A stretch of DNA of 26,857 nt from a virus. This document shows positions 627-26,857 of this stretch, piece after piece. The notes beneath the pieces were generated by a model. That model was not told the DNA's origin and did not search any database. It saw only the letters and a list, made by a program, of their open reading frames with translations. The first letter of the stretch is position 1. Every line of letters begins with the position of its first letter. The stretch lies in UHGV virus genome UHGV-0196088; one strand, given 5' to 3'. Both the position numbers and the translations under genes were made by a program.

Positions 627-1613
627 TTAGTAGCCGAGCTTGGCGTTGACTCGCGCCTGGACAGCGCTGTAGAGATTTCCGAGGCGGCGCTTACGCTCCT
701 CACCATTGCCATAATCACCGCGAATCACTGCATCAGCCAATGCGTCGATGTTGGGCCCTGCTGGCTTCGGGGCGGATGCGTTGCCGGAAAGCTTCTCGTT
801 CACTCGCTGCTGGACAGCCGCGTAGTTGGCTCCGAGACGTCGCTTACGCTCCTCCCCATTGCCATAGTCGCCACGGATCACGGCGTCAGCCAATGCGTCG
901 ATGTTGGGCCCCGCTGGCTTCGGGGCGGATGCGTTGCCGGAAAGCTTCTCGTTCACTCGCTGTTGGACAGCCGCGTAGTTGGCTCCGAGGCGGAGCTTAC
1001 GCTCCTCCCCGTTCCCGTACTCGCCGCGAATCACCGCGTCGGCGAGGGTGTCGATGTTCGGCGTTGCAGGAGCAGGTGCTGGTGCTGGTGCTGGTGCTGG
1101 GGTGTTGCCAGTCATCTGGTCATACCAAGACTGGGCGCGAGCCATGTAGGCGGTGTGCTGGGAGCCAGCAAGAGATGCCGGGCAAGCAGTCGCAGAAAAG
1201 TCCTTGTGCCCGAACACATTCTTCCCCCACTGGGGTCGGCCAAGACCGTAGAACTTACAGACAGCGGCTACGAGGTGTGCACCGTTATCCAGGCAGGCTT
1301 CGGATACCGCCCACGGGTTCGAGGACACGTCGGCGTGTTCGATGCCGATACTGGTGGTGTTGGCGGCAAAGTTGCCTGCATGCCAGGCGGTATCCCGGTC
1401 CCACACCAACTGGCCTATGCGTCCGTCGGATTGGACTTGGTAGTGGGCGGAAGCAGGACGGGACTGCCACACGTCGTAGCAGCCCCGGATGGTGAGGTTG
1501 CCTGCGTTGTGGTGGATGATCACCTTATCGATCTTTCGCCCGTTGCGTCCGGGTGTGTAGTGTGTGTTCATGATGAGGTCGATGTCAGCCTCCAGCGCGA
1601 GCCAATTCTTCAT
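627..1613 (-). CDS. Endolysin: N-acetylmuramoyl-L-alanine amidase (amidase_2/PGRP-like) with three C-terminal CW_7-like cell-wall-binding repeats
   Basis: 328-aa ORF. N-terminal domain has amidase_2 hallmarks (KVIIHHNAG, TAWHAGN, HLVAAVCKFYG). PAPAPAPAPA linker, then three ~50-aa repeats with the G-x-YGNGEER-x-RLG...VQ-x-VN pattern. AAGGAGA RBS; start overlaps the holin stop (TGATG). Confidence 0.9.
   Translation of the reverse strand: MKNWLALEADIDLIMNTHYTPGRNGRKIDKVIIHHNAGNLTIRGCYDVWQSRPASAHYQVQSDGRIGQLVWDRDTAWHAGNFAANTTSIGIEHADVSSNPWAVSEACLDNGAHLVAAVCKFYGLGRPQWGKNVFGHKDFSATACPASLAGSQHTAYMARAQSWYDQMTGNTPAPAPAPAPAPATPNIDTLADAVIRGEYGNGEERKLRLGANYAAVQQRVNEKLSGNASAPKPAGPNIDALADAVIRGDYGNGEERKRRLGANYAAVQQRVNEKLSGNASAPKPAGPNIDALADAVIRGDYGNGEERKRRLGNLYSAVQARVNAKLGY
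630..1060 (-). repeat. Three tandem in-frame ~150-bp repeats encoding the CW_7-like modules of the endolysin
   Basis: Near-identical DNA blocks recur with ~150-bp period (for example caatgcgtcgatgttgggccc near 738 and 888). The protein shows three PNID(A/T)LADAVIRG(D/E)YGNGEERK-RLG repeats. Confidence 0.85.
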
Positions 1614-2104
1614 CAGTGAATCTCCTTATCTGTTGAGTTTTTGGTGGTTGTTGTTTCGGTGAGTGAGGGTCTTGTTTCGGCGCGGTTAGCGATCGCATCG
1701 AGCGCCCCGCGCATTTGGGATGGGATGGGCAGTCCTAGGCGGGTGGCGTTCTCCACCAGCGAGATGCCTTCGTTGGATAAGTAGAAGAAAATGACCGCCG
1801 CGCGTAGCACACTGGGTGCGCCGAGGATGTGGACGTCGATCAGGTGGGCGAGGCCGACGAGGGTGAAGATGAGGATTTTGCGGCTGATTCCTCGGAAACC
1901 AACCGAGGAGCTGAGGCGGCGTTCGTTGATGGCGGCGAGCACCCCGGTGATGTAGTCGGCTATTGCGAAGACAATCAACGCGTAAACCAAACCGTCGAGC
2001 CCTCCAAGATAAGCGGCGAGCCACGCACCAATACCAGCGATCCCGGTTTGGATGGCGTGCCAGATGGCGTGTAGAGACATGAGAATGATTCCTTTCGTGG
2101 GCAT
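1613..2104 (-). CDS. Holin (Phage_holin_4_1-like); probable dual-start holin/antiholin
   Basis: Hydrophobic TM segments and a DYITG motif; lies immediately upstream of the endolysin with overlapping stop/start. Two in-frame starts (MPTKGIIL-MSLH...); the downstream ATG near 2077 has the better RBS (AAAGGAA). Polar C-terminal tail. Confidence 0.8.
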   Translation of the reverse strand: MPTKGIILMSLHAIWHAIQTGIAGIGAWLAAYLGGLDGLVYALIVFAIADYITGVLAAINERRLSSSVGFRGISRKILIFTLVGLAHLIDVHILGAPSVLRAAVIFFYLSNEGISLVENATRLGLPIPSQMRGALDAIANRAETRPSLTETTTTKNSTDKEIH

Positions 2105-9152: not shown

Positions 9153-9353
9153 GTGTGGACCAATGTTGTAACTAATCGCCGGTGGGTATGGCCGTTGTTT
9201 GCTTTACTCGTCATCGGTACGGTCGTTTTCGCTGTTTTGTGGATGAGCGGTGTCGTGCATCCCGTCACGGGCATCGCTAATGCAGCAGGTTTCGCAATAT
9301 GTGCGATCGGGCTTGTAGCGTGGCATCTTGCCACTCGTGGTTTGCAGCGATGA
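9153..9353 (+). CDS. Small membrane protein (2 predicted TM helices), opposite-strand accessory gene
   Basis: 66-aa ORF with a GTG start preceded by GAGGAGGAA (strong RBS, ~5-nt spacing). Two hydrophobic helices (WVWPLFALLVIGTVVFAVLWM, AAGFAICAIGLVAW). Its stop overlaps the next start (ATGA). Confidence 0.6.
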   Translation: MWTNVVTNRRWVWPLFALLVIGTVVFAVLWMSGVVHPVTGIANAAGFAICAIGLVAWHLATRGLQR

Positions 9354-9967
9354 GCACTCCGGTGCTTTTCCTCCACGGACTCGGTGAGACCCCGCAAGCT
9401 TGGAATGGCGTCATCAACGAGTTCGAGAGTATTGACGCTCTCACGCCCACTGTTTTCGATCAGCCATCAGGAACGCCATGGTCGTTACATGAGCGCACGG
9501 ACGAACTCGCCGCGTCACTGAATGATCCAGTCGACGTGGTTGGGCTATCTCTTGGCGCGGTGATGGGTCTTGATCTGGCAATTCGGCACCCGCACATGGT
9601 TCGGTCGCTGTTTCTTTCAGCTCCGCAGGCGCGCCCTCCTAAAGCATTGATGCGCATTCAAAGCGTTCTCATGCGAGTCTTGCCTGAGCGTCTCGTGTGC
9701 CCATCACAGATTTCCAAGCAACAGTTGCTGGAAATCCTGCGTCAAATATCAGCCATTGATTTCGAGCCAGAGCTTGGAAATATCACGGTTCCAACGACGA
9801 TTGCGTGCGGCTCGAAAGACCGCGCGAATCTTCCTGCCGCCCGCACCATCAGCCAACAGATCCCACATGCCCGCCTCATCGTTGTGCCAGACGCGGGTCA
9901 TCAATGGCATCAATTAATGCCCACACAATTCGCTCACGAACTAAAAGCCCACTGGAACAGTATCTAA
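9350..9967 (+). CDS. Alpha/beta-hydrolase fold protein (esterase/lipase-like)
   Basis: About 205 aa from the ATG overlapping the upstream stop. HG oxyanion motif (FLHGLG), nucleophile elbow G-L-S-L-G, C-terminal Asp (GSKDR) and His (DAGHQ) candidates for the triad. Confidence 0.8.
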   Translation: MSTPVLFLHGLGETPQAWNGVINEFESIDALTPTVFDQPSGTPWSLHERTDELAASLNDPVDVVGLSLGAVMGLDLAIRHPHMVRSLFLSAPQARPPKALMRIQSVLMRVLPERLVCPSQISKQQLLEILRQISAIDFEPELGNITVPTTIACGSKDRANLPAARTISQQIPHARLIVVPDAGHQWHQLMPTQFAHELKAHWNSI

Positions 9968-19866: not shown

Positions 19867-19925
19867 CTTGTTTGGTCATGTACATACAGCCATAGGTGCG
19901 CCCGCTTATCCAGTCGTATTGGCTG
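19867..19925 (-). promoter_or_regulatory. Conserved leader element, copy C
   Basis: Identical 28-bp core (CTTGTTTGGTCATGTACATACAGCCATA) plus the TATCCAGTCGT block; located just 3' of the C5-MTase stop and about 38 nt upstream of the acidic ORF start. Confidence 0.55.
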
Positions 19926-21417
19926 CTTTTTGTAGCCTGTTTAGGACGTATTTCACTACTGGTAATGCCACCCCATTTCCCCACAGTTTGTACTGTGCTG
20001 AATCAGTTGGCGCGGTTTTCAGCCAAGTAGTGATTTGGCTGCGAGTTTTCGGTTTCACGCCCCGTCCTAGGTTCCAGTTCTTCCACACGCCCTCCCAGTA
20101 CCTGATTTCGTCTTCGTCTGGGTCGAGGTTTGTGAGGTTGTCACACCAATAGTCCGGGAAGCCTTGTAGACGAGAACATTCGAGGGGTGTGAGTTTGCGT
20201 GGGCGAAGCATCGTATTAGCGACAATAGGTGGCTGGTGTGAATCACTTGCCAAAAGTGCACCAGCAACATTTGTAGTTGCCCTCGTGAAATGATCAGATT
20301 TCGAAGAAGCATAGATCGGTTCGAGAATGACCATTCCGCCTTGATTGCATGCGGGATTACCGCCAGCTAAATCAAGAGTTTTTGCCACAGTGGTTTCGTA
20401 ACCGCATTCACCACCATATTTACGATTGTCGTGGACGGAATTTATACCGTATACAGGTTGGTCGAGTAGGAGTGGAACATTTCCACCTCCTGTTCCCATT
20501 CGTGAAGTTAAGGTTTGACTTGTTACCTGGTCGCCAATTTCGATGCGCGAATCATTGGGATGGTAATCAAGCATCACCTGCATGCTAGGTTTAAATAAGA
20601 CTTGGTCAGCACCAGTTCCTAATGTGCCTGAAAGGTCATGCTGAATCAACGGCCCTTTACCACCGCCTGGCTTACCGGCACGCATACGAAGAGTTAACGC
20701 CCCGCACCGGTTGCCTGTAGTGCTTGGGCTAATTGCTCGGGCAGGGTTTTGTTTTTCTTCTTTGCTCGCGTCAGGATTCCTTGTGCTGCTTTGGGACTCA
20801 AATAGAATCTCGGGTGCGGATTGTCCTGCAAAATCTGCGACAAGGAAGATACGACGACGACGTTGGGGCACTCCGAAAAATTGAGCATCGAGCACTCGCC
20901 ATGCAAGTGATGCCCCATCTGCCAAGACGTATCCGCTGGTTGCCCAGCTGGTTTCAGGAACAGGAATGCGTGGCGTTTGCTGGCAGGACACCTCGATAAA
21001 CGCTTGCAAGACCGCGGCAAAGTCGGCCCCGTGGTTTGAGGAGAATACGCCCGGCACGTTTTCCCACACAGCATATCTTGGGTAGACACCATGAGTTGCT
21101 TGCCTCATTTCTTCAATAATCCGCACAGCTTGGTAAAACAGTGAGGAGCGAGACCCATCAATCCCGCTCCGCTTACCTGCGATAGATAAATCCTGACAAG
21201 GTGAACCAAACGTGATCACATCCACCGGCTGTAACCGGCCACCATCTAACAAATTAATATCGCCAACATGGCGAACTTCAGGCAGATTTTTCCTCGTTAC
21301 CCGGATAGCGAAGGGGTCTACCTCAGATGCCCACATCGGTTTGATACCAACCATTTTGGCAGCTAAAGGGAAACCGCCCGAACCATCAAACAAGGAACCC
21401 AACGTCAAAGCACTCAC
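19906..21417 (-). CDS. DNA (cytosine-5)-methyltransferase
   Basis: 503 aa with motif I (LFDGSGG), motif IV (GSPCQDLSIAG), motif VI (ENVPG), motif VIII (QRRRRIFLVA), a large variable target-recognition region, and a C-terminal GFPDYW motif. GTG start overlaps the stop of the upstream MTase (GTGA). Confidence 0.95.
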   Translation of the reverse strand: MSALTLGSLFDGSGGFPLAAKMVGIKPMWASEVDPFAIRVTRKNLPEVRHVGDINLLDGGRLQPVDVITFGSPCQDLSIAGKRSGIDGSRSSLFYQAVRIIEEMRQATHGVYPRYAVWENVPGVFSSNHGADFAAVLQAFIEVSCQQTPRIPVPETSWATSGYVLADGASLAWRVLDAQFFGVPQRRRRIFLVADFAGQSAPEILFESQSSTRNPDASKEEKQNPARAISPSTTGNRCGALTLRMRAGKPGGGKGPLIQHDLSGTLGTGADQVLFKPSMQVMLDYHPNDSRIEIGDQVTSQTLTSRMGTGGGNVPLLLDQPVYGINSVHDNRKYGGECGYETTVAKTLDLAGGNPACNQGGMVILEPIYASSKSDHFTRATTNVAGALLASDSHQPPIVANTMLRPRKLTPLECSRLQGFPDYWCDNLTNLDPDEDEIRYWEGVWKNWNLGRGVKPKTRSQITTWLKTAPTDSAQYKLWGNGVALPVVKYVLNRLQKAANTTG

Positions 21418-22715
21418 GATTCACCCCGATCAACATCCCGCACCAAATCCAAATACGCGTATTCCTTGCCCTCACGCAAACAGGTGATACCTGCCGCGTC
21501 CCCGGTGTGTTCGGCATACCGGCGCAAAATCACGGAGGCGTATTTCTCGTCGAGCTCCATCGCATAACAGATGCGGTCGCTGGCCTCGCACGCCATCAAG
21601 GTTGAGCCTGAGCCTGCGAACGTGTCGAGCACGATCGCGTTCGCCTGAGTGGAGTTCCCAATCGGATAAGCCAACAAATCCAGCGGTTTAGAGGTGGGGT
21701 GGTCGGCGTTGCGGCGTGGCTTAGCGAAATTCCAGATCGTGGTCTGCTTACGATCCGCATACCAGCGATGCTTACCCGTCTTCACCCATCCAAAGAGCAC
21801 CGGCTCGTGCTGCCACTGATACGGGGAACGTCCCAATACGAGGGAATCTTTGACCCAGATGCAACATCCGGAGAGGTAGAAGCCAGCGTCTTGGAAGGCT
21901 CTGCGGAAGTTTAAGCCTTCAGTGTCAGCGTGAAAAACGTAGGCGGACGCGCCCTTCTCACACACGCCCGCCATATTCGTAAACGCTGCGAGAAGGAAGT
22001 CGTAGAACTTATCGCCATCCATCTTGTCGTTCTTAATCGACAAACCCGACCCTGATTCGAAGGCGACGTTATATGGCGGATCGGTCAACACAAGATTCGC
22101 ACGCTTACCATCCATCAACAACTCGACGTCCTCGGCGCTGGTGGCGTCGCCACAGACAAGTCGGTGGCGGCCGACTGTCCACACATCCCCACGCTCCACG
22201 AAAGTAGCAGCTTCTAACGCGGCGGTGAGGTCGAAATCATCATCCTCCACATCACCCTCATCCAATGAGCCGATAAGCTGCGCGATCTCAGCATCGTCAA
22301 AACCGGTCAGTTCAGCATCGAAATCCGAAGAGTCAAGGTCAGCGATGAGGAGGGCAAGTTTGTCGTTGTCCCATTCGCCACTGATCTTGTTCATCGCAAC
22401 GTTCAGCGCCTTTTCGCGCATTTCGTCAAGTTCGACGACGACGCAGTCCACGGTTTCTTGTCCCAAGTGTTTGAGAACGGACAATCGCTGATGACCAGAG
22501 ATGACGGTGTTGTCATTCGCCGCGTTAACCACCACTAGCTCGACGTAGCCGAACTCAGTCAGGGAGCGCTTAAGCTTTTCAAACTCAGCATCGCCAGGCT
22601 TGAGTTCCTTACGCGGGTTATATGCGGCAGGTTTCAGTTCAGCTATCGGTAGCTGCTTGATTATCATGGACATAGGTGGAGCCTTTCTTGAATAAGAAGC
22701 TGGCTGATGCCCCAA
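21414..22715 (-). CDS. ParB-like nuclease domain fused to an N6-adenine (DPPY-type, beta-class) DNA methyltransferase
   Basis: N-terminal ParB-like region (IAELKPAAYNPRK...ISGHQRL), then DPPY (LVLTDPPYNV) followed by FAGSGST. The likely true start is MSMIIKQ near 22673, which would reduce the overlap with the HNH gene. Confidence 0.9.
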   Translation of the reverse strand: MGHQPASYSRKAPPMSMIIKQLPIAELKPAAYNPRKELKPGDAEFEKLKRSLTEFGYVELVVVNAANDNTVISGHQRLSVLKHLGQETVDCVVVELDEMREKALNVAMNKISGEWDNDKLALLIADLDSSDFDAELTGFDDAEIAQLIGSLDEGDVEDDDFDLTAALEAATFVERGDVWTVGRHRLVCGDATSAEDVELLMDGKRANLVLTDPPYNVAFESGSGLSIKNDKMDGDKFYDFLLAAFTNMAGVCEKGASAYVFHADTEGLNFRRAFQDAGFYLSGCCIWVKDSLVLGRSPYQWQHEPVLFGWVKTGKHRWYADRKQTTIWNFAKPRRNADHPTSKPLDLLAYPIGNSTQANAIVLDTFAGSGSTLMACEASDRICYAMELDEKYASVILRRYAEHTGDAAGITCLREGKEYAYLDLVRDVDRGES

Positions 22716-23206
22716 TCGCCAATAAGTTCGTAGACACGTTTCGTTTCTGCTTCAACCTTCGGGTGGCACGAGCGGCAAAGAACTGCGAGATTATTGCCCC
22801 AGCGCTCGCCTCCACATTTGGTTGGGATGATGTGGTGCACAATGAGATTGCACCTGCTTCCACACCGTCTGCAGATCCCGCGTTTGCGAAGCTTTTGAGA
22901 GAGCTGCTGCCAGTGATAGTCATAGGGACCATACGTGCGCATCGCCTGAGCGTTTTGCCTCAAGACGTTAGTTAGTCGCTGTCTTTTCGAATCGGAGTAT
23001 TCACGCCATTTGCAAGATGTGTGCGCACCGATTTTCGCTTTTGTTTCGGGCGAATGATAGTTCTCACCAAGAGCCTCCTTGCGTCGTCTGAGGCCTGCCG
23101 AAACTTTCTTTCTAAACTCAGGATCTTTGTTCTTCTCAATGAGGTCTTTGCGGCTCTTTTGCCATTCATTTTGACAAGGCACCGAACAAAAGAATTGAGA
23201 AGGCAC
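22664..23206 (-). CDS. HNH endonuclease
   Basis: C-terminal HNH/zinc motif (CRRCGSRCNLIVHHIIPTKCGGERWGNNLAVLCRSCH) and a basic N-terminal region. The gene is visibly lower in G+C than its neighbours. The start is uncertain (GTG at 23206 or an internal ATG). Confidence 0.8.
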   Translation of the reverse strand: MPSQFFCSVPCQNEWQKSRKDLIEKNKDPEFRKKVSAGLRRRKEALGENYHSPETKAKIGAHTSCKWREYSDSKRQRLTNVLRQNAQAMRTYGPYDYHWQQLSQKLRKRGICRRCGSRCNLIVHHIIPTKCGGERWGNNLAVLCRSCHPKVEAETKRVYELIGDWGISQLLIQERLHLCP

Positions 23207-23261
23207 CCGATTTCAGGCATACCTACGCGTTCCCCGCACACCGCATGTGGCGCATTCGTAT

Positions 23262-24440
23262 TCAACCTTCATGCCTTGTAATCGCTTTCTTTAGCGCGTC
23301 GACGTGAGCGAACGAGTTTTCCCAATGCAGACCTGTATGACCGAAGTGCCCATAGGTTGAATACTGTGTAAAGCTAGGCTTGCGAAGGTTCAAGGCATCG
23401 ATGATTGCTCCAGGGCGCAGCGAGAATACTTCGCGTGCTGCCTCGGTCAGGATCTCGTCGGAGTATTCACCACTGCCGAGGGTGTCAACAGTGAAGGCGA
23501 CTGGGTCAGCCTTCCCAATCGCATAAGAAATGCTTACTTGGCACTCGATGGCCAACCGTGCGTCGACGATCGTTTTCGCGATCAGGCGCGCCATATAGGC
23601 ACCCGAACGATCCACTTTCGAGGCGTCCTTGCCTGAGAACGCACCACCACCATGGAGCGCGAGACCGCCGTAAGTATCAACCATCAACTTGCGACCCGTC
23701 AGACCCGTGTCCGCCTTCGGCCCACCCACCGTAAACAAGCCTGAGGGATTCACCAGAATCTCGGTGTCAGCGCTAATCGGCAGGTACAGCTTACAAGCGG
23801 GTGCGACGATCAGTGTTTTGACCTCAGCTGCAAGCTCATCTAGATCCTTGATCTTCTCGTGTTGGATCGACACCACCACGGTCTCAATCGCCAGCGGTTG
23901 TCCGGCGGCGTCGTAGCGAACCGTCACCTGCGCCTTACCATCGGACTTGATACCGGTGATCGTGCCTTGCTTGCGGGCATTGTCGAGCCGGGCGCAAATC
24001 TCATGAGAGAGCACAAGCGGCAGCGGCAAACGCTCCGGAGTCTCACGAGTGGCATAACCGTAAACAGTGCCTTGATCGCCAGCACCCTGCAAAGCGAATT
24101 CGGTGTCATCCCCAAAGCGTGCCTCTAAGGACTTGGAGACTCCGGCATTGATATCTGGGGATTGGCGGCGTGTCCAGACGAAGACGAGGAACTTCCACGG
24201 CACATAACCCGCCTCCATCAACGCGTAACGCACCGACTCACGAATGCGCGGACGAACCTTCGAAGTGATCTCGCCAGTGACGATGATCCGATGCCCGCTA
24301 GCCATCACTTCTACTGCGACGCGGGCAGCAGGATCCTCGTAGAGGATATCGTCAAGGATCGTGTCAGCGATCAGGTCGCAGAGCTTATCGGGATGGCCGA
24401 CACACACGGCCTCAGCAGTCTTCGTAACAGACATACACAC
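23262..24440 (-). CDS. metK: S-adenosylmethionine synthetase (methionine adenosyltransferase)
   Basis: MetK signature motifs by eye: GHPDKLCD near the N-terminus, GAGDQG, DTYGG, GGGAFSGKDASKVDRSGAY, and a YAIG C-terminal region. The probable start is the ATG two codons in (MSVTKTAEAV...). Confidence 0.95.
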   Translation of the reverse strand: MCMSVTKTAEAVCVGHPDKLCDLIADTILDDILYEDPAARVAVEVMASGHRIIVTGEITSKVRPRIRESVRYALMEAGYVPWKFLVFVWTRRQSPDINAGVSKSLEARFGDDTEFALQGAGDQGTVYGYATRETPERLPLPLVLSHEICARLDNARKQGTITGIKSDGKAQVTVRYDAAGQPLAIETVVVSIQHEKIKDLDELAAEVKTLIVAPACKLYLPISADTEILVNPSGLFTVGGPKADTGLTGRKLMVDTYGGLALHGGGAFSGKDASKVDRSGAYMARLIAKTIVDARLAIECQVSISYAIGKADPVAFTVDTLGSGEYSDEILTEAAREVFSLRPGAIIDALNLRKPSFTQYSTYGHFGHTGLHWENSFAHVDALKKAITRHEG

Positions 24441-24464
24441 TCACTTTCCAAGGAATCGGGACAT

Positions 24465-24495
24465 AGAAAAGTGCCCACCCATCCGGGGCAGGCAC
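24465..24495 (-). terminator. Intrinsic terminator candidate between TerS and metK
   Basis: On the minus transcript: GUGCCUGCCC-CGGAU-GGGUGGGCAC (~10-bp stem with G-U pairs) followed by UUUUCUAU. Coordinates are approximate. Confidence 0.3.
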
Positions 24496-24513
24496 ACGAA
24501 AATCAAAGGGGTG

Positions 24514-25086
24514 TTAGGAGCGTGCTTTGAGCAGTTGCTCCATCACGTCATCACCCGGAGCCGTGCCCGAGTAGTCGGTGGTGCAGGTGGCGCGGACGAT
24601 CTCGTAAATCTCGTACCAGTACACGTTCGCTTGCTTCCCGAACGACTGGGACATGGCGACGAAGGGGGACGCGATTGCAGCCCCTGTGGTTGGGTGCTTG
24701 CCAAGTAGGCCGAACTTGGAGATCGCCTGCTCACACTGCACATAGCGCGCGAACGCCTGCGCATAGGCTTCGATCAGACGTGGGGCGACGAACTGGGAAC
24801 AGCCACGTTGATCGAGCCATTGCCACGTTTCTCGGTAGACCAGGTCAGCACCGAGTGGTTTGCCATCCCGCTGAACCTCAGACAAATACTCGCTAGGTTC
24901 TGGCATGGTCTCCCCGGCGAGCACTGCGCCCTCACCCACATCGGAGCCGCTGAAATCAAACACGTCCTCAAGCGGATCATGCAACCTAGTCGCAGGGCTG
25001 CCTTTGGCAACCTTCTCACTCAACGCATCCGGCTTCGCACCCGCACGCACCCGACGTCCACCCCTGTTAGTACCATCCTTAGCCAT
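24514..25086 (-). CDS. Terminase small subunit (P27-family-like)
   Basis: 190 aa; basic N-terminus (MAKDGTNRGGRRVRAGAKP), central ...LIEAYAQAFARYVQCEQAISKFGLLGKHPTTGAAIASPFVAM... resembling P27-type small terminases. GGAGG RBS. First late gene after an AT-rich promoter region. Confidence 0.6.
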   Translation of the reverse strand: MAKDGTNRGGRRVRAGAKPDALSEKVAKGSPATRLHDPLEDVFDFSGSDVGEGAVLAGETMPEPSEYLSEVQRDGKPLGADLVYRETWQWLDQRGCSQFVAPRLIEAYAQAFARYVQCEQAISKFGLLGKHPTTGAAIASPFVAMSQSFGKQANVYWYEIYEIVRATCTTDYSGTAPGDDVMEQLLKARS

Positions 25087-25101
25087 GGGAATCCTCCCCT
25101 C

Positions 25102-25130
25102 TTGCTGGACGTGCTGATACTCTATATAAT
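25102..25130 (+). promoter_or_regulatory. Near-consensus sigma-70-type promoter (TTGCTG - 17 nt - TATAAT) facing the plus-strand membrane gene
   Basis: Read directly in the AT-rich spacer between the TerS start and the plus-strand ORF; a TTGACA hexamer lies a few nt downstream. The same region probably holds the divergent promoter for TerS. Confidence 0.45.
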
Positions 25131-25185
25131 TTCACCAGTTGACATAATTAGCATCGGTAATGGAGAGTCTTCGTGGACTACTGAG

Positions 25186-25638
25186 ATGGAAGCGACCAAT
25201 AACTTATCCAATCGTGGGATTCGGTATAGATGGCTGCTAGGTATTACCTTTGTATTTTTCGCTTGCCATGTTTCCTACACCGTTTTAGCTCTTACGCTTC
25301 CGAGTATTCAGCTACTCGGGTCACTTTTGATCGCTGTATCAATACCCGTTAGCGCTCTTTTTGGTTGTGTCCTGCCACTCAGAGGGTTTAACTCTCGATT
25401 CTTGATTAAATCTGGGTTCTCTATTTTCGTTGGCATTGTAGCGGCTTACGCCACGGCACAACTAGCTGAGAGTGGCAATTTATCAGTGCGAGCAATGCTC
25501 TGCGGGCACCTCGCACTCAATCTGACAATCTACACTTTAATGTGTGGTTTAACGACAATCTATATTCGCCGTCAGCAAACTGGGTGTACTCGACGCCCAG
25601 AAACCACTGAGGATCAACAACTAGACGACAATCAATAG
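25186..25638 (+). CDS. Integral membrane protein (about 150 aa, ~4 TM helices) in a low-G+C island
   Basis: In-frame ATG within track ORF 24808..25638. Hydrophobic helices (WLLGITFVFFA, LLGSLLIAVSIPVSALFGCVL, GFSIFVGIVAAYATA, LALNLTIYTLMCGL). The region is visibly AT-richer than the phage genes. Confidence 0.55.
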   Translation: MEATNNLSNRGIRYRWLLGITFVFFACHVSYTVLALTLPSIQLLGSLLIAVSIPVSALFGCVLPLRGFNSRFLIKSGFSIFVGIVAAYATAQLAESGNLSVRAMLCGHLALNLTIYTLMCGLTTIYIRRQQTGCTRRPETTEDQQLDDNQ

Positions 25639-25673
25639 TCTACAGGTGCCCAACAACCCTACCCTCTTACTGA

Positions 25674-26183
25674 TCATTTCTCCGACTCAGGTAGGCTTTT
25701 CGTTCCTTTGTTCAACGCGTCAGTGAGGTTTTCAATAAACGATTCACTATGATCAATGATTACCGTTGCCCCATCTTTGATCACAACATGCACGGACGTT
25801 GTATTCGGGTAGTTGGCGTTTACCTCTGTCAATTTGCCATCATATGTAAACCAACGAAGTGTTATATCGCTACGGGAAATTTTACGTGCAGACTCTGAAC
25901 AGACCTGATGTGGTACATCAGCTGGTGATGCTGAGTGAGTGTCAACGCATACCTGGCCTTTAGTTTGATAAACGTCAACGGTATTGTTGCCAGAGTCGGC
26001 TCTAGCCACCAAATACTTCGCATCGATTTTGGGAGAGGTAACCACGACTCCAGGGATTAGATTGAAATAGAGCGCGATTAAAATTCCGAGGATAGAGAGC
26101 GCGCAGGCAGCAATAATGAGTGCTATTTTTCTTATTCTGAGAACAAGAATTCTAGTTTTCACATTGTTGCTGCCTGCGTTCAT
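25674..26183 (-). CDS. N-terminally membrane-anchored protein with ~120-aa extracytoplasmic domain
   Basis: 169 aa: basic stretch (KTRILVLRIRK), then one TM helix (IALIIAACALSILGILIALYF), then a soluble domain with two Cys. Low G+C; immediately downstream of the next ORF. Confidence 0.55.
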   Translation of the reverse strand: MNAGSNNVKTRILVLRIRKIALIIAACALSILGILIALYFNLIPGVVVTSPKIDAKYLVARADSGNNTVDVYQTKGQVCVDTHSASPADVPHQVCSESARKISRSDITLRWFTYDGKLTEVNANYPNTTSVHVVIKDGATVIIDHSESFIENLTDALNKGTKSLPESEK

Positions 26184-26195
26184 TGCTTTGCGCTC

Positions 26196-26857
26196 CTATC
26201 CAGCTGCTCCGATTGCCACCAGCCCTCCGACTAGCCCAGCTTCGGGTGCGACGACAACTACAACGGCAGCGAGTGCCACGAGCGCGACAACACCGACTGC
26301 TACAGCAACTGCCTCGCCAGAAACCTCGGGTAGTCGCAATTCTACACCTAGCGTTGGATGCAGGGTGACCTCATAGGTGACAGTCACGGACATGGTGGAC
26401 TTTACTGCGGTGTTTCCGCTTGCAAGGTTATCTGAATCCACTCGAATCCATGCCTGCAATGAAGTGGGATCCACAACTGTGAGTCCATATGAAATATTTC
26501 CTGACTTAACAGACCCTGCTATACGTTTGATTTTTGAGGCGAAGTCACCATTGGAACCGAGATCTTTCACATCGAAGGTTGCGCTTGCGGAGTCAATTGA
26601 ACTGAGAGTCGAGGCTGACAGTTCTCCCGCATTGTTTACCGTGATGTTAGTTGAAAACAATTCATTAGAGGATGTCGTCGCTTGAGTCGCGATATGTGCT
26701 GAGACCTTCATGTCGAAAGTTGGCGTATGCACATTGCCAAGCTCAAGTGTCTGGCCGTATTCCCAGCCAACAGAAGAAAAGCTTGGGTAGTAACCCAAGG
26801 GCTCAAGTACACGTCGCACGAAAGTTTCTCGTGCGATCTCGAGCAGATTACGTCGGT
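26196..26857 (-). CDS. Ser/Thr-rich surface-type protein with hydrophobic C-terminal segment; 5' end probably beyond the window
   Basis: The ORF stays open to the window edge. Beta-rich Ser/Thr/Asn-rich sequence ending in a long hydrophobic Ala/Val/Gly stretch preceded by LPEVSG. Confidence 0.45.
   Translation of the reverse strand, partial: RRNLLEIARETFVRRVLEPLGYYPSFSSVGWEYGQTLELGNVHTPTFDMKVSAHIATQATTSSNELFSTNITVNNAGELSASTLSSIDSASATFDVKDLGSNGDFASKIKRIAGSVKSGNISYGLTVVDPTSLQAWIRVDSDNLASGNTAVKSTMSVTVTYEVTLHPTLGVELRLPEVSGEAVAVAVGVVALVALAAVVVVVAPEAGLVGGLVAIGAAG

What the first reader, a model, noticed from the sequence alone, without database searches (positions are those of the whole stretch)
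25087..26857. Low-G+C island upstream of the small terminase, with a near-consensus promoter and membrane/surface proteins
Seen in sequence: the region is visibly AT-richer than the phage genes (not computed). It contains TTGCTG-17-TATAAT on the plus strand driving a ~4-TM protein gene, then two convergent minus-strand genes, one for an N-terminally anchored extracytoplasmic protein and one for a Ser/Thr-rich protein with a hydrophobic C-terminus. Inference: horizontally acquired, constitutively expressed cargo, possibly surface remodelling or exclusion, or the edge of a larger system continuing beyond the window.
Basis: partly seen in the sequence, partly recalled or inferred. Interest (0 to 1): 0.55.

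Follow-up and report, generated by a model that had tools for sequence, protein, structure and literature searches.

The report
Phage-borne cell-wall enzyme cassette, AT-rich
The AT-rich stretch next to the small terminase gene is the visible half of a 3.6-kb swappable accessory cassette in a prophage, encoding a membrane-anchored peptidoglycan-binding, lysozyme-like enzyme and two small membrane partner proteins; it is separate from the phage's own lysis genes and its function is untested.

Summary

The cassette is 97-100% identical among phages whose backbones are 80-90% identical, so it is exchanged horizontally. The phage has its own holin and endolysin elsewhere. Sister phages carry a different YbfG-type enzyme plus a convergent membrane protein in the same slot. 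Best reading: accessory cell-wall enzyme with fast-evolving protective or regulatory membrane partners. It is not a sortase substrate and probably not the lysis cassette. Function is inferred, not shown.

The parts
24514..25086 (-). Small terminase gene (P27/Terminase_4 type). It is the backbone flank and marks the left edge of the cassette.
   Evidence: PF05119 E 4.9e-6 and phrog_83 E 7.9e-28. G+C 0.597, GC3 0.675. Identity to relatives drops from about 100% to about 86% at window 25097-25101 (L002), about 25002 (L009) or 24921 (L004).
25102..25130 (+). Candidate sigma-70-type promoter of the 4-TM gene, TTGCTG-17-TATAAT.
   Evidence: It holds the only TATAAT in the window. The composite is expected 0.06 times by chance. 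The -35 is 3/6 and the site was not called by the scanner. The sequence is not conserved in the 78%-identity lineage L017. Function is untested.
25186..25638 (+). 150-aa polytopic (4-TM, N-in/C-in) membrane protein with an acidic/basic C-terminal tail, transcribed convergently to the other two genes.
   Evidence: Four hydrophobic segments with basic residues in the N-terminus, the TM2-3 loop and the C-tail. A 41%-identical 147-aa homologue lies at the same convergent position in L017. There is no Pfam, PHROG, NCBIfam or PADLOC hit. Only 3 clusters were found among 1.84 billion representatives.
25639..25673 (.). 35-bp gap between the two convergent stop codons, with no terminator.
   Evidence: No terminator-like site. 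Folds of 25610-25720 on either strand are no better than shuffles, z -0.07 and +1.1.
25674..26183 (-). 169-aa bitopic membrane protein (p169). It has a basic N-terminus, one TM helix, and an extracytoplasmic eight-stranded beta domain followed by a helix. It is the co-inherited partner of the YbfG-type enzyme.
   Evidence: phrog_35626 (unknown function) E 4.5e-10. TM at 20-38. AF2 mean pLDDT 79.6, with the beta domain at 57-148 above 87. Homologues lie directly downstream of YbfG genes in L017, L020 (Boudabousia) and L021 (Lachnospiraceae). The family has 151 members.
26095..26200 (-). RNA hairpin spanning the ybfG stop codon, the p169 Shine-Dalgarno (GGAG) and p169 codons 1-29.
   Evidence: MFE -42.6 kcal/mol against -21.9 +/- 3.6 for shuffles, z -5.7, 0/200 shuffles as stable. 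The inner 11-bp helix is 96% paired in 5 sequences from 3 lineages, with 3 pairs changed on both sides. Covariation is 0.357 against 0.224, exceeded in 0/500 shuffles.
26196..26857 (-). 3' end (last 219 codons plus stop) of a 734-aa YbfG-family gene: the alpha/beta C-terminal domain and the C-terminal TM helix. The gene and its 280-bp upstream region continue about 1.8 kb beyond the window.

Best explanation
The 1.77-kb island is the terminase-proximal half of a discrete, AT-rich, horizontally exchanged 3.6-kb accessory cassette. It occupies the slot between the HNH endonuclease and small terminase genes of an HK97-like temperate siphovirus of human urogenital Actinomycetota.

The cassette encodes three proteins:
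1. A YbfG-family cell-wall enzyme. It has four peptidoglycan-binding repeats, an Rv2525c/GH25-like (muramidase-fold) TIM barrel, an alpha/beta domain and a C-terminal membrane helix. It has no signal peptide.
2. A small bitopic membrane protein (p169) with an extracytoplasmic beta domain. Its translation is tied to that of the enzyme by a hairpin that buries its ribosome-binding site.
3. A convergent 4-TM protein with its own -10 element.

Proposed working: the enzyme binds and cuts or remodels peptidoglycan at the membrane surface. The fast-evolving membrane partners restrain it or protect the producer, as an effector/immunity or enzyme/regulator set. This would give the lysogen a cell-wall-directed trait such as antagonism, exclusion or wall remodelling. 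It is not the phage's lysis system.

Shown here: anatomy, fold, synteny, module boundaries, composition and the hairpin. Inferred: enzymatic activity, topology of the enzyme, the partner's protective role, and timing of expression.
For: - Discrete module: G+C is 0.45-0.52 over L009 10000-13600 against 0.55-0.62 in the flanks. The block is 97-100% identical over 3.6 kb between phages with 80-90% identical backbones.
- The slot is empty in Gardnerella phage vB_Gva_AB1.
- Not the lysis cassette: the holin (phrog_199, PF05105) and endolysin (phrog_7698) sit after the tail genes at window 627-2104.
- Partner linkage: p169 homologues follow YbfG genes from Actinomycetota to Lachnospiraceae.
- Partners diverge faster than the enzyme. 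p169 is 56/30/26% identical where the enzyme is 78/60/44%. The 4-TM protein is 41% identical where the enzyme is 78%.
- Coupling hairpin: z -5.7 with compensatory changes.
- Sister phages in Mobiluncus, Varibaculum and Arcanobacterium (terS 88-91% aa identity) carry another YbfG-type enzyme in the same slot. It is 821-829 aa with no TM, and is followed by a convergent 149-aa polytopic membrane protein.
- Burroughs et al. 2025 (PMC12419801) predict that PGBD plus Rv2525c-like TIM-barrel proteins with rapidly evolving membrane or secreted partners are cell-wall conflict systems.
- In B. subtilis the ybfGFE operon also pairs YbfG with a membrane protein, YbfF, that affects beta-lactam survival.
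Against: - No activity has been shown for any Rv2525c-like or YbfG protein. PMC10480492 says Rv2525c activity is not established, and B. subtilis delta-ybfG had no beta-lactam phenotype.
- The enzyme has no signal peptide and only a C-terminal helix. A cytoplasmic N-terminal bulk (tail-anchor topology) cannot be excluded, and that would fit a holin-dependent lysin better.
- The C-terminal domain type does not co-vary with the partner family.
- The association between a C-terminal TM and a TM-bearing downstream gene is weak (21/29 against 10/22, p 0.08).
- The 4-TM gene has no detectable similarity to the 149-aa protein of the sister cassette.
- There are no PADLOC hits.
Confidence: 0.5

Rival explanations
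1. It is an auxiliary lysis module. The 4-TM protein with its charged C-tail acts as a holin or antiholin. The signal-less, tail-anchored muramidase-like enzyme waits on the cytoplasmic face until the membrane is permeabilised. p169 is a lysis accessory.
For: The enzyme lacks a signal peptide and has only a C-terminal helix. The GH25-like fold is shared with many endolysins, and phrog_13480 'endolysin' gives E 5.6e-25 on the TIM barrel. The 4-TM protein has holin-like size and a charged C-terminus. A PF05105 holin lies 2.3 kb from the chromosomal YbfG gene in L021-L023.
Against: The phage already has a canonical holin-endolysin pair after the tail genes. The 4-TM gene is on the opposite strand with its own promoter-like site and matches no holin family. 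A tblastn search of 50,697 phage records found only one full-length homologue, an unannotated fecal-sample fragment, plus an endolysin matching the TIM-barrel segment alone. Only 15 of 80 genome loci show any hit to this phage's backbone genes, so the family appears mostly chromosomal. The related phage vB_Gva_AB1 lacks the cassette entirely.
Confidence: 0.2
2. It is superinfection exclusion or lysogenic conversion by the membrane proteins. The 4-TM protein, and perhaps p169, blocks DNA entry or receptor access of incoming phages. It would be expressed from the prophage, like the HK97 gp15 moron. The enzyme would be incidental or act on the receptor layer.
For: There is a stand-alone promoter-like element in front of a small inner-membrane protein, in opposite orientation to the late genes. 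The gene is variable and lineage-restricted. The slot also collects other cargo such as IS elements and DUF1706 genes.
Against: There is no similarity to any known exclusion or defence protein. The p169-enzyme linkage extends to non-phage chromosomal loci, which points to a function tied to the enzyme rather than to phage entry.
Confidence: 0.15
3. It encodes a surface adhesin or sortase-anchored Ser/Thr-rich wall protein plus unrelated small ORFs.
For: The visible C-terminal fragment is Ser/Thr-rich. It ends in LPEVSG followed by a hydrophobic stretch.
Against: The fragment belongs to a 734-aa protein without an N-terminal signal peptide. LPEVSG is not LPXTG, and no basic tail follows the helix. 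The region folds as a compact alpha/beta domain.
Confidence: 0.02
4. The low G+C simply marks the prophage end and adjacent host DNA.
For: Proteins in the same clusters at 90% identity are named Gardnerella. A Gardnerella locus measured here is 36-45% G+C, closer to the island than to the backbone.
Against: Phage replication genes at 0.58-0.64 G+C resume immediately beyond the cassette: HNH, SNF2, D5 primase and Bro/ANT. The prophage end with its serine recombinases lies on the other side of the window, beyond the endolysin.
Confidence: 0.02

Closest known systems
YbfG of Bacillus subtilis (ybfGFE operon; Pfam Ybfg_C PF21015 family proteins)
   Same: Length is about 730 aa. The order of parts is the same: PG_binding_1 repeats, Rv2525c-like TIM barrel, C-terminal domain, C-terminal TM helix, and no signal peptide. 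A membrane-protein gene lies immediately downstream.
   Different: Identity is 38-41%. The downstream partner here is a 169-aa bitopic protein unrelated to polytopic YbfF. PF21015 itself does not score on the window protein. This copy is phage-borne. YbfG itself has no known function.
PGBD + Rv2525c-like TIM barrel + prok-TelC 'conflict modules' with 3TM-CCDN / duo-Ig / VanY partners (Burroughs, Nicastro & Aravind 2025, PMC12419801)
   Same: It shares the PGBD repeats fused to an Rv2525c-like hydrolase and the adjacent rapidly evolving membrane partner genes. Sister phages carry an 821-829-aa TM-less form, followed by a convergent polytopic membrane protein, in the same slot.
Rv2525c of Mycobacterium tuberculosis and GH25 muramidases (Cpl-1, Psm, PlyP40, LytC, SleM)
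   Different: Rv2525c is a single-domain Tat-exported protein. GH25 enzymes use a DxE motif, whereas here it is D391-F-D393. Activity of the Rv2525c clade is unproven.
Phage morons (for example HK97 gp15, lambda bor/lom)
   Same: It is extra DNA between conserved modules, with deviant base composition. It is present or absent among relatives and carries a promoter-like element of its own.
   Different: It holds three genes in two convergent units. No terminator was found. The same slot holds alternative alleles of the same enzyme family in sister phages, so it behaves more like a polymorphic cassette locus than a one-off insertion.

Membership tests
YbfG family | PG_binding_1 repeats N-terminal to an Rv2525c_GlyHyd-like domain | tested here: met
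YbfG family | Ybfg_C (PF21015) C-terminal domain | tested here: inconclusive
   PF21015 does not score on the window fragment or the full protein. It does score on the 44%-identical homologue P0064. The window C-terminus aligns with Lachnospiraceae C-termini at 31-37% identity, E 1e-24 to 1e-39.
YbfG family | C-terminal TM helix, no N-terminal signal peptide | tested here: met
   Hydropathy analysis finds one segment in the last 40 residues and none at the N-terminus. The same holds in Bacillus and Lachnospiraceae members.
GH25 muramidase | TIM-barrel fold with catalytic Asp on strand 1 and a DxE motif on strand 4 | tested here: inconclusive
GH25 muramidase | Measured muramidase activity | not testable with these tools
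   This needs a zymogram or muropeptide analysis.
PGBD-Rv2525c-TelC conflict module (PMC12419801) | C-terminal prok-TelC lipocone (all-helical) domain | tested here: not met
PGBD-Rv2525c-TelC conflict module (PMC12419801) | Adjacent rapidly evolving partner (3TM-CCDN or duo-Ig) and VanY peptidase | tested here: not met
   Fast-evolving partners do exist (p169 and the 4-TM protein). However, p169 is bitopic with a beta domain, the 4-TM protein lacks a conserved Asp, and there is no VanY gene in the cassette.
Phage moron | Deviant composition and presence/absence among related phages | tested here: met
Phage moron | Own promoter and terminator | tested here: inconclusive
   There is a unique TATAAT with TTG at -35, but the scanner made no call. 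No terminator was found between the convergent genes. No expression data are available.
Holin-endolysin lysis cassette | Holin-family membrane protein next to and co-oriented with the lysin, serving as the phage's only lysis genes | tested here: not met
   The 4-TM protein matches no holin family and is on the opposite strand. A canonical holin and endolysin are at window 627-2104.
Sortase (LPXTG) substrate | N-terminal signal peptide, LPXTG motif, hydrophobic segment, basic tail | tested here: not met
   There is no signal peptide. The motif is LPEVSG, and the C-terminus ...AIGAAG has no Arg or Lys.
Lysozyme inhibitor (PliI/PliC/MliC) for p169 | Eight-stranded beta fold matching a known inhibitor with significant score | tested here: inconclusive

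The most novel reading that the evidence does not exclude
The HNH-terS slot of this phage group may be a polymorphic 'cell-wall weapon' locus. Alternative YbfG-type effectors would each travel with their own fast-evolving membrane immunity proteins and sweep horizontally between phages of vaginal and urogenital Actinomycetota (Mobiluncus, Varibaculum, Arcanobacterium, and contigs named Gardnerella). The TM-anchored form is in the window and a TM-less form, possibly TelC-bearing, is in sister phages. Lysogens would use them for interbacterial antagonism or kin discrimination. The SD-sequestering hairpin would enforce that immunity is made whenever the effector is made.
Probability: 0.2. Interest if true: 0.65.

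Novelty: new variant of a known kind. Interest (0 to 1): 0.42.

Why it matters
YbfG and Rv2525c-like proteins are widespread in Gram-positive bacteria. More than 3,000 homologues and at least 575 genome loci were found here. None has a demonstrated function.

This prophage offers a compact natural test bed. The enzyme sits with two candidate partner genes in a cassette that is swapped between phages and has a different allele in sister phages.

If the effector/immunity reading holds, prophages of bacterial-vaginosis-associated Actinomycetota would carry cell-wall-directed competition factors. That bears on community dynamics in the vaginal microbiome and on the search for new lysins. If it does not hold, the finding remains a well-delimited example of a moron-type cassette.

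Tried and rejected
- Sortase substrate: rejected. There is no signal peptide, no LPXTG and no basic tail.
- Lipoprotein p169: rejected. IAAC at residues 24-27 looks like a lipobox, but the Cys lies inside a 20-residue hydrophobic helix and is not conserved in L017 or P0123.
- 4-TM protein as YbfF: rejected. A profile of 13 YbfF-like partners does not match it.
- 4-TM protein homologous to the 149-aa membrane protein of the sister cassette: no similarity.
- C-terminal domain co-varying with partner family: not seen.
- Association of a C-terminal TM with a TM partner: weak, p 0.08.
- TelC domain in the window protein: no evidence.
- Flanking direct or inverted repeats as insertion scars: only short chance-level matches.
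- Rfam families in the cassette: none.
- Defence-system models (PADLOC) and NCBIfam: nothing meaningful.
- DNA similarity of the island to 50,697 phage records: none.
- Host identification from flanks: ambiguous. The flanking ABC transporter is itself mobile across genera.
Full report
**Observation.** The region 25087-26857 has 47.4% G+C against 57.0% for the rest of the window. Every other 1771-nt window lies between 50.6% and 61.2% (mean 56.8, sd 2.2), so the island is about 4 sd low. Third-codon-position G+C is 0.42-0.46 for the three reading frames, against 0.63-0.71 for terminase, portal, capsid, tape-measure, tail, holin and endolysin genes. The motif TTGCTG-17-TATAAT is at 25102-25130. 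The TATAAT is the only one on either strand of the window, and TTG-N20-TATAAT is expected 0.06 times by chance. The -35 is only 3/6 and the consensus scanner did not report the site. The 150-aa gene (25186-25638, +) has four hydrophobic segments. Its basic residues lie at the N-terminus, in the TM2-TM3 loop and in the C-tail, which fits an N-in/C-in topology. The 169-aa gene (25674-26183, -) has a basic N-terminus and one TM helix. The third reading frame has no upstream stop before the window end.

**Extending the window.** Exact-protein look-ups found the 169-aa and 150-aa proteins on many contigs. One of them, L001, is 99.7% identical to window 21001-26857. On all of them the third frame is the end of a 734-aa gene carrying PF01471 (PG_binding_1) and PF08924 (Rv2525c_GlyHyd-like). 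Beyond it come an HNH endonuclease, an SNF2 helicase, a D5-type primase and a Bro/ANT gene at 0.58-0.64 G+C. The low-G+C block is therefore about 3.6 kb (L009 10000-13600). It sits between the replication and packaging modules.

**The phage.** The rest of the window is an HK97-like siphovirus. It carries terS, SAM synthetase, a ParB-methylase, a C5-methylase, TerL, portal, ClpP protease, capsid, tail genes, Dit and a Tal-like tail protein. A PF05105/phrog_199 holin (1613-2104) and a phrog_7698 endolysin (627-1613) follow. Two serine recombinases lie just beyond the left end of the window. The phage thus has its own lysis cassette.

Gardnerella phage vB_Gva_AB1 has the same backbone order, but its HNH gene is directly followed by terS. 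Backbone proteins 88-93% identical to the window's occur in prophages of Mobiluncus curtisii, Varibaculum cambriense and Arcanobacterium hippocoleae. Proteins clustering at 90% identity or more with the window's terS, 150-aa and 169-aa proteins carry the NCBI name Gardnerella sp. KA00735; the terS and 169-aa clusters also include DNF00502 members. The host is therefore a urogenital actinomycete. Which one remains unresolved (see 'noticed').

**A discrete, exchanged module.** L001 was aligned against L002, L004 and L007. Identity is about 80-90% over the replication genes. It falls to about 30% in a 300-bp stretch just upstream of the 734-aa gene. It is then 97-100% for 3.6 kb up to the terS start. 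Against the window, L002 is 100% identical from 25097 to 26855 but 86% identical over terS and metK. The junction lies at about 25002 in L009 and at 24921 in L004. The cassette has therefore moved recently between diverged phages by recombination near the terS 5' end. YbfG-type genes are also 5-10 points lower in G+C than their surroundings in Arcanobacterium, Boudabousia, Alloscardovia, Gardnerella, Bifidobacterium, Lachnospiraceae and the sister phages.

**The 734-aa protein.** The AF2 model has pLDDT 82 and pTM 0.73. It shows four three-helix PG-binding repeats (1-282), a TIM barrel (290-490), a long helix, an alpha/beta domain (550-680) and low-confidence C-terminal helices.
- Acidic residues D292, D391, D393, D450 and D470 are invariant in 31 homologues. 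The FAVDFD motif aligns with Rv2525c IDDNP.
- There is no N-terminal hydrophobic segment and one C-terminal TM.

Homologues number more than 3,000, and at least 575 genome loci span Actinomycetota and Bacillota. They include B. subtilis-group YbfG. JGI names one homologue 'ybfG', and PF21015 'Ybfg_C' scores on P0064. The family is nearly absent from 50,697 deposited phage genomes, although PHROGs holds it as phrog_15213, function unknown.

From the literature:
- YbfG sits in a putative ybfGFE operon. The polytopic membrane protein YbfF confers beta-lactam resistance, and delta-ybfG showed no such phenotype (10.64898/2026.05.13.724699).
- B. amyloliquefaciens YbfG was detected in pellicle and cell-free fractions (PMC12020853).
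- Rv2525c is counted among peptidoglycan hydrolases, but its activity is not established (PMC10480492).
- Burroughs et al. describe PGBD + Rv2525c-like + prok-TelC proteins with rapidly evolving 3TM-CCDN or duo-Ig partners as predicted cell-wall conflict modules (PMC12419801).

**The partners.** p169 homologues lie immediately downstream of the YbfG gene in three lineages: the 78%-identity phage lineage (L017), a Boudabousia prophage (L020), and a non-phage chromosomal locus in Lachnospiraceae (L021). A profile search found 151 members, many of them from Agathobacter. p169 diverges faster than the enzyme: it is 56, 30 and 26% identical where the enzyme is 78, 60 and 44%. The AF2 model (pLDDT 79.6) gives a TM helix, an eight-stranded beta domain (57-148, pLDDT above 87) and a short helix. 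Two cysteines (C79, C95) on neighbouring strands are conserved in the actinobacterial members, consistent with an extracytoplasmic domain; this last point is inference.

The 4-TM protein has a 41%-identical counterpart in the same convergent position in L017. Only three clusters exist in an exhaustive search of 1.84 billion representatives. No family match was found.

In the sister phages of Mobiluncus, Varibaculum and Arcanobacterium the same slot holds a different set. There is an 821-829-aa TM-less YbfG-type protein, followed by a convergent 149-aa polytopic membrane protein and a DUF1706/DinB-like gene. The 149-aa protein is not detectably similar to the window's 4-TM protein. Its size, orientation and position are the same.

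**A coupling hairpin.** The 12-nt gap between the ybfG stop (UAG, overlapping the GGAG of the p169 Shine-Dalgarno) and the p169 AUG lies inside a long hairpin at window 26095-26200, minus strand.
- MFE is -42.6 kcal/mol against -21.9 +/- 3.6 for shuffles, z -5.7.
- The outer stem pairs the GGAG. The inner 11-bp stem pairs codons 3-6 with codons 23-27.
- The inner stem is 96% paired in five sequences from three lineages, with three pairs changed on both sides.
- Covariation is 0.357 against 0.224, exceeded in 0 of 500 shuffles. Slid controls are 30-54% paired.
- L020 has an equivalent stem in another register.

With only three lineages this evidence is supportive rather than conclusive. The inference is that p169 is translated mainly when a ribosome finishing ybfG opens the stem.

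**Interpretation.** The anatomy is that of an accessory cassette: a peptidoglycan-binding, muramidase-fold enzyme tethered to the membrane, plus two fast-evolving small membrane proteins. Several features fit an enzyme with protective or regulatory partners better than a second lysis cassette:
- tight translational linkage of p169 to the enzyme;
- faster divergence of the partners than of the enzyme;
- alternative enzyme/partner alleles in the same slot of sister phages;
- recent horizontal spread of the cassette;
- mostly non-phage contexts among the genome loci examined, only 15 of 80 showing any hit to this phage's backbone genes;
- the separate canonical holin-endolysin pair in this phage.

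The main weakness is topology. The enzyme has no signal peptide, so how or whether the catalytic part reaches the wall is unknown. That keeps the holin-dependent auxiliary-lysin rival alive. The 4-TM gene may also be an independent exclusion-type moron. Activity, expression and interactions are all untested.

**Comparison and novelty.** The enzyme is a member of the YbfG family by architecture. It is not a member of the TelC-bearing conflict modules, because its C-terminal domain differs. It is not a sortase substrate, and nothing tested here supports a role as the phage's endolysin. The new elements are the phage slot, the p169 and 4-TM partner set, the allelic alternative in sister phages, and the coupling hairpin. 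I rate it a new variant of a known, functionally uncharacterised kind, of moderate interest.

Noticed in passing
window 26095-26200 (- strand): A very stable RNA hairpin (z -5.7) buries the Shine-Dalgarno and start region of the 169-aa gene. It is conserved, with compensatory changes, in three lineages.
   Followed up: yes
window 22664-23206 (- strand): A free-standing HNH endonuclease gene (PF01844; G+C 0.50, GC3 0.52) lies between the SAM synthetase and ParB-methylase genes. It is present in the window and L001. It is missing from L002, L004, L007 and L008, where the two flanking genes abut or overlap. It looks like a homing-endonuclease insertion.
   Followed up: partly
window 9299-9967 (+ strand): A 222-aa alpha/beta-hydrolase gene (PF12697 E 1.7e-13) lies on the opposite strand inside the tail module, just before the tape-measure gene. 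Relatives carry a different 154-aa gene at this site (L106, L107). This is a second variable cargo site.
   Followed up: partly
L002, L003, L006, L010-L015 (between the 4-TM gene and terS); L004/L005 11098-14950: The terS-proximal junction collects insertions. Several contigs hold IS elements (rve integrase, Transposase_mut). L004 and L005 hold a 3.8-kb block with two DUF1706 genes, a 328-aa gene and a duplicated terS 5' fragment. L003 is a decayed prophage.
   Followed up: partly
whole window; L049; L104: There is a host/composition puzzle. Proteins clustering at 90% identity or more with the window's are named Gardnerella sp. KA00735 (terS, 150-aa, 169-aa) and DNF00502 (terS, 169-aa). A Gardnerella locus measured here is 36-45% G+C and Gardnerella phage vB_Gva_AB1 is 39.55%, while this phage is 57%. 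The closest backbones in reference genomes are in Mobiluncus, Varibaculum and Arcanobacterium. Either the phage crosses genera or some assignments are unreliable.
   Followed up: partly
L008/L009 (GCA_001398375.1, CVOA01000001.1): A 63.5-kb contig carrying this phage region (cassette about 99.8% identical to the window) is deposited under 'Chlamydia trachomatis'. It is almost certainly DNA of a co-sampled vaginal actinomycete or phage in a clinical-swab assembly.
   Followed up: no
L003 18270-20057; L105 19385-20987: A 595-aa ABC transporter next to the prophage belongs to a cluster at 90% identity that spans Corynebacterium, Actinomyces, Arthrobacter and other genera. The flank itself is therefore a mobile element shared across genera.
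   Followed up: no
L049 (Gardnerella sp. KA00747), L083/L084 (Helcococcus bovis): More distant phages of the same backbone type carry a YbfG-type gene between the SNF2 helicase and HNH genes instead of between HNH and terS. One host, Helcococcus, is a member of the Bacillota.
   Followed up: no
window 19906-21417 (- strand): The C5 cytosine methylase has low GC3 (0.45) compared with its neighbours. Its length varies among relatives (503 against 468 aa), which suggests another exchanged segment.
   Followed up: no
L021-L023 10564-14247: In the Lachnospiraceae chromosomal locus, the YbfG/p169 pair lies 2.3 kb from a PF05105 holin gene and next to an HTH + LytTR response regulator + HATPase_c_5 kinase set. 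That is the kind of quorum-sensing unit that controls bacteriocin or fratricide loci.
   Followed up: no
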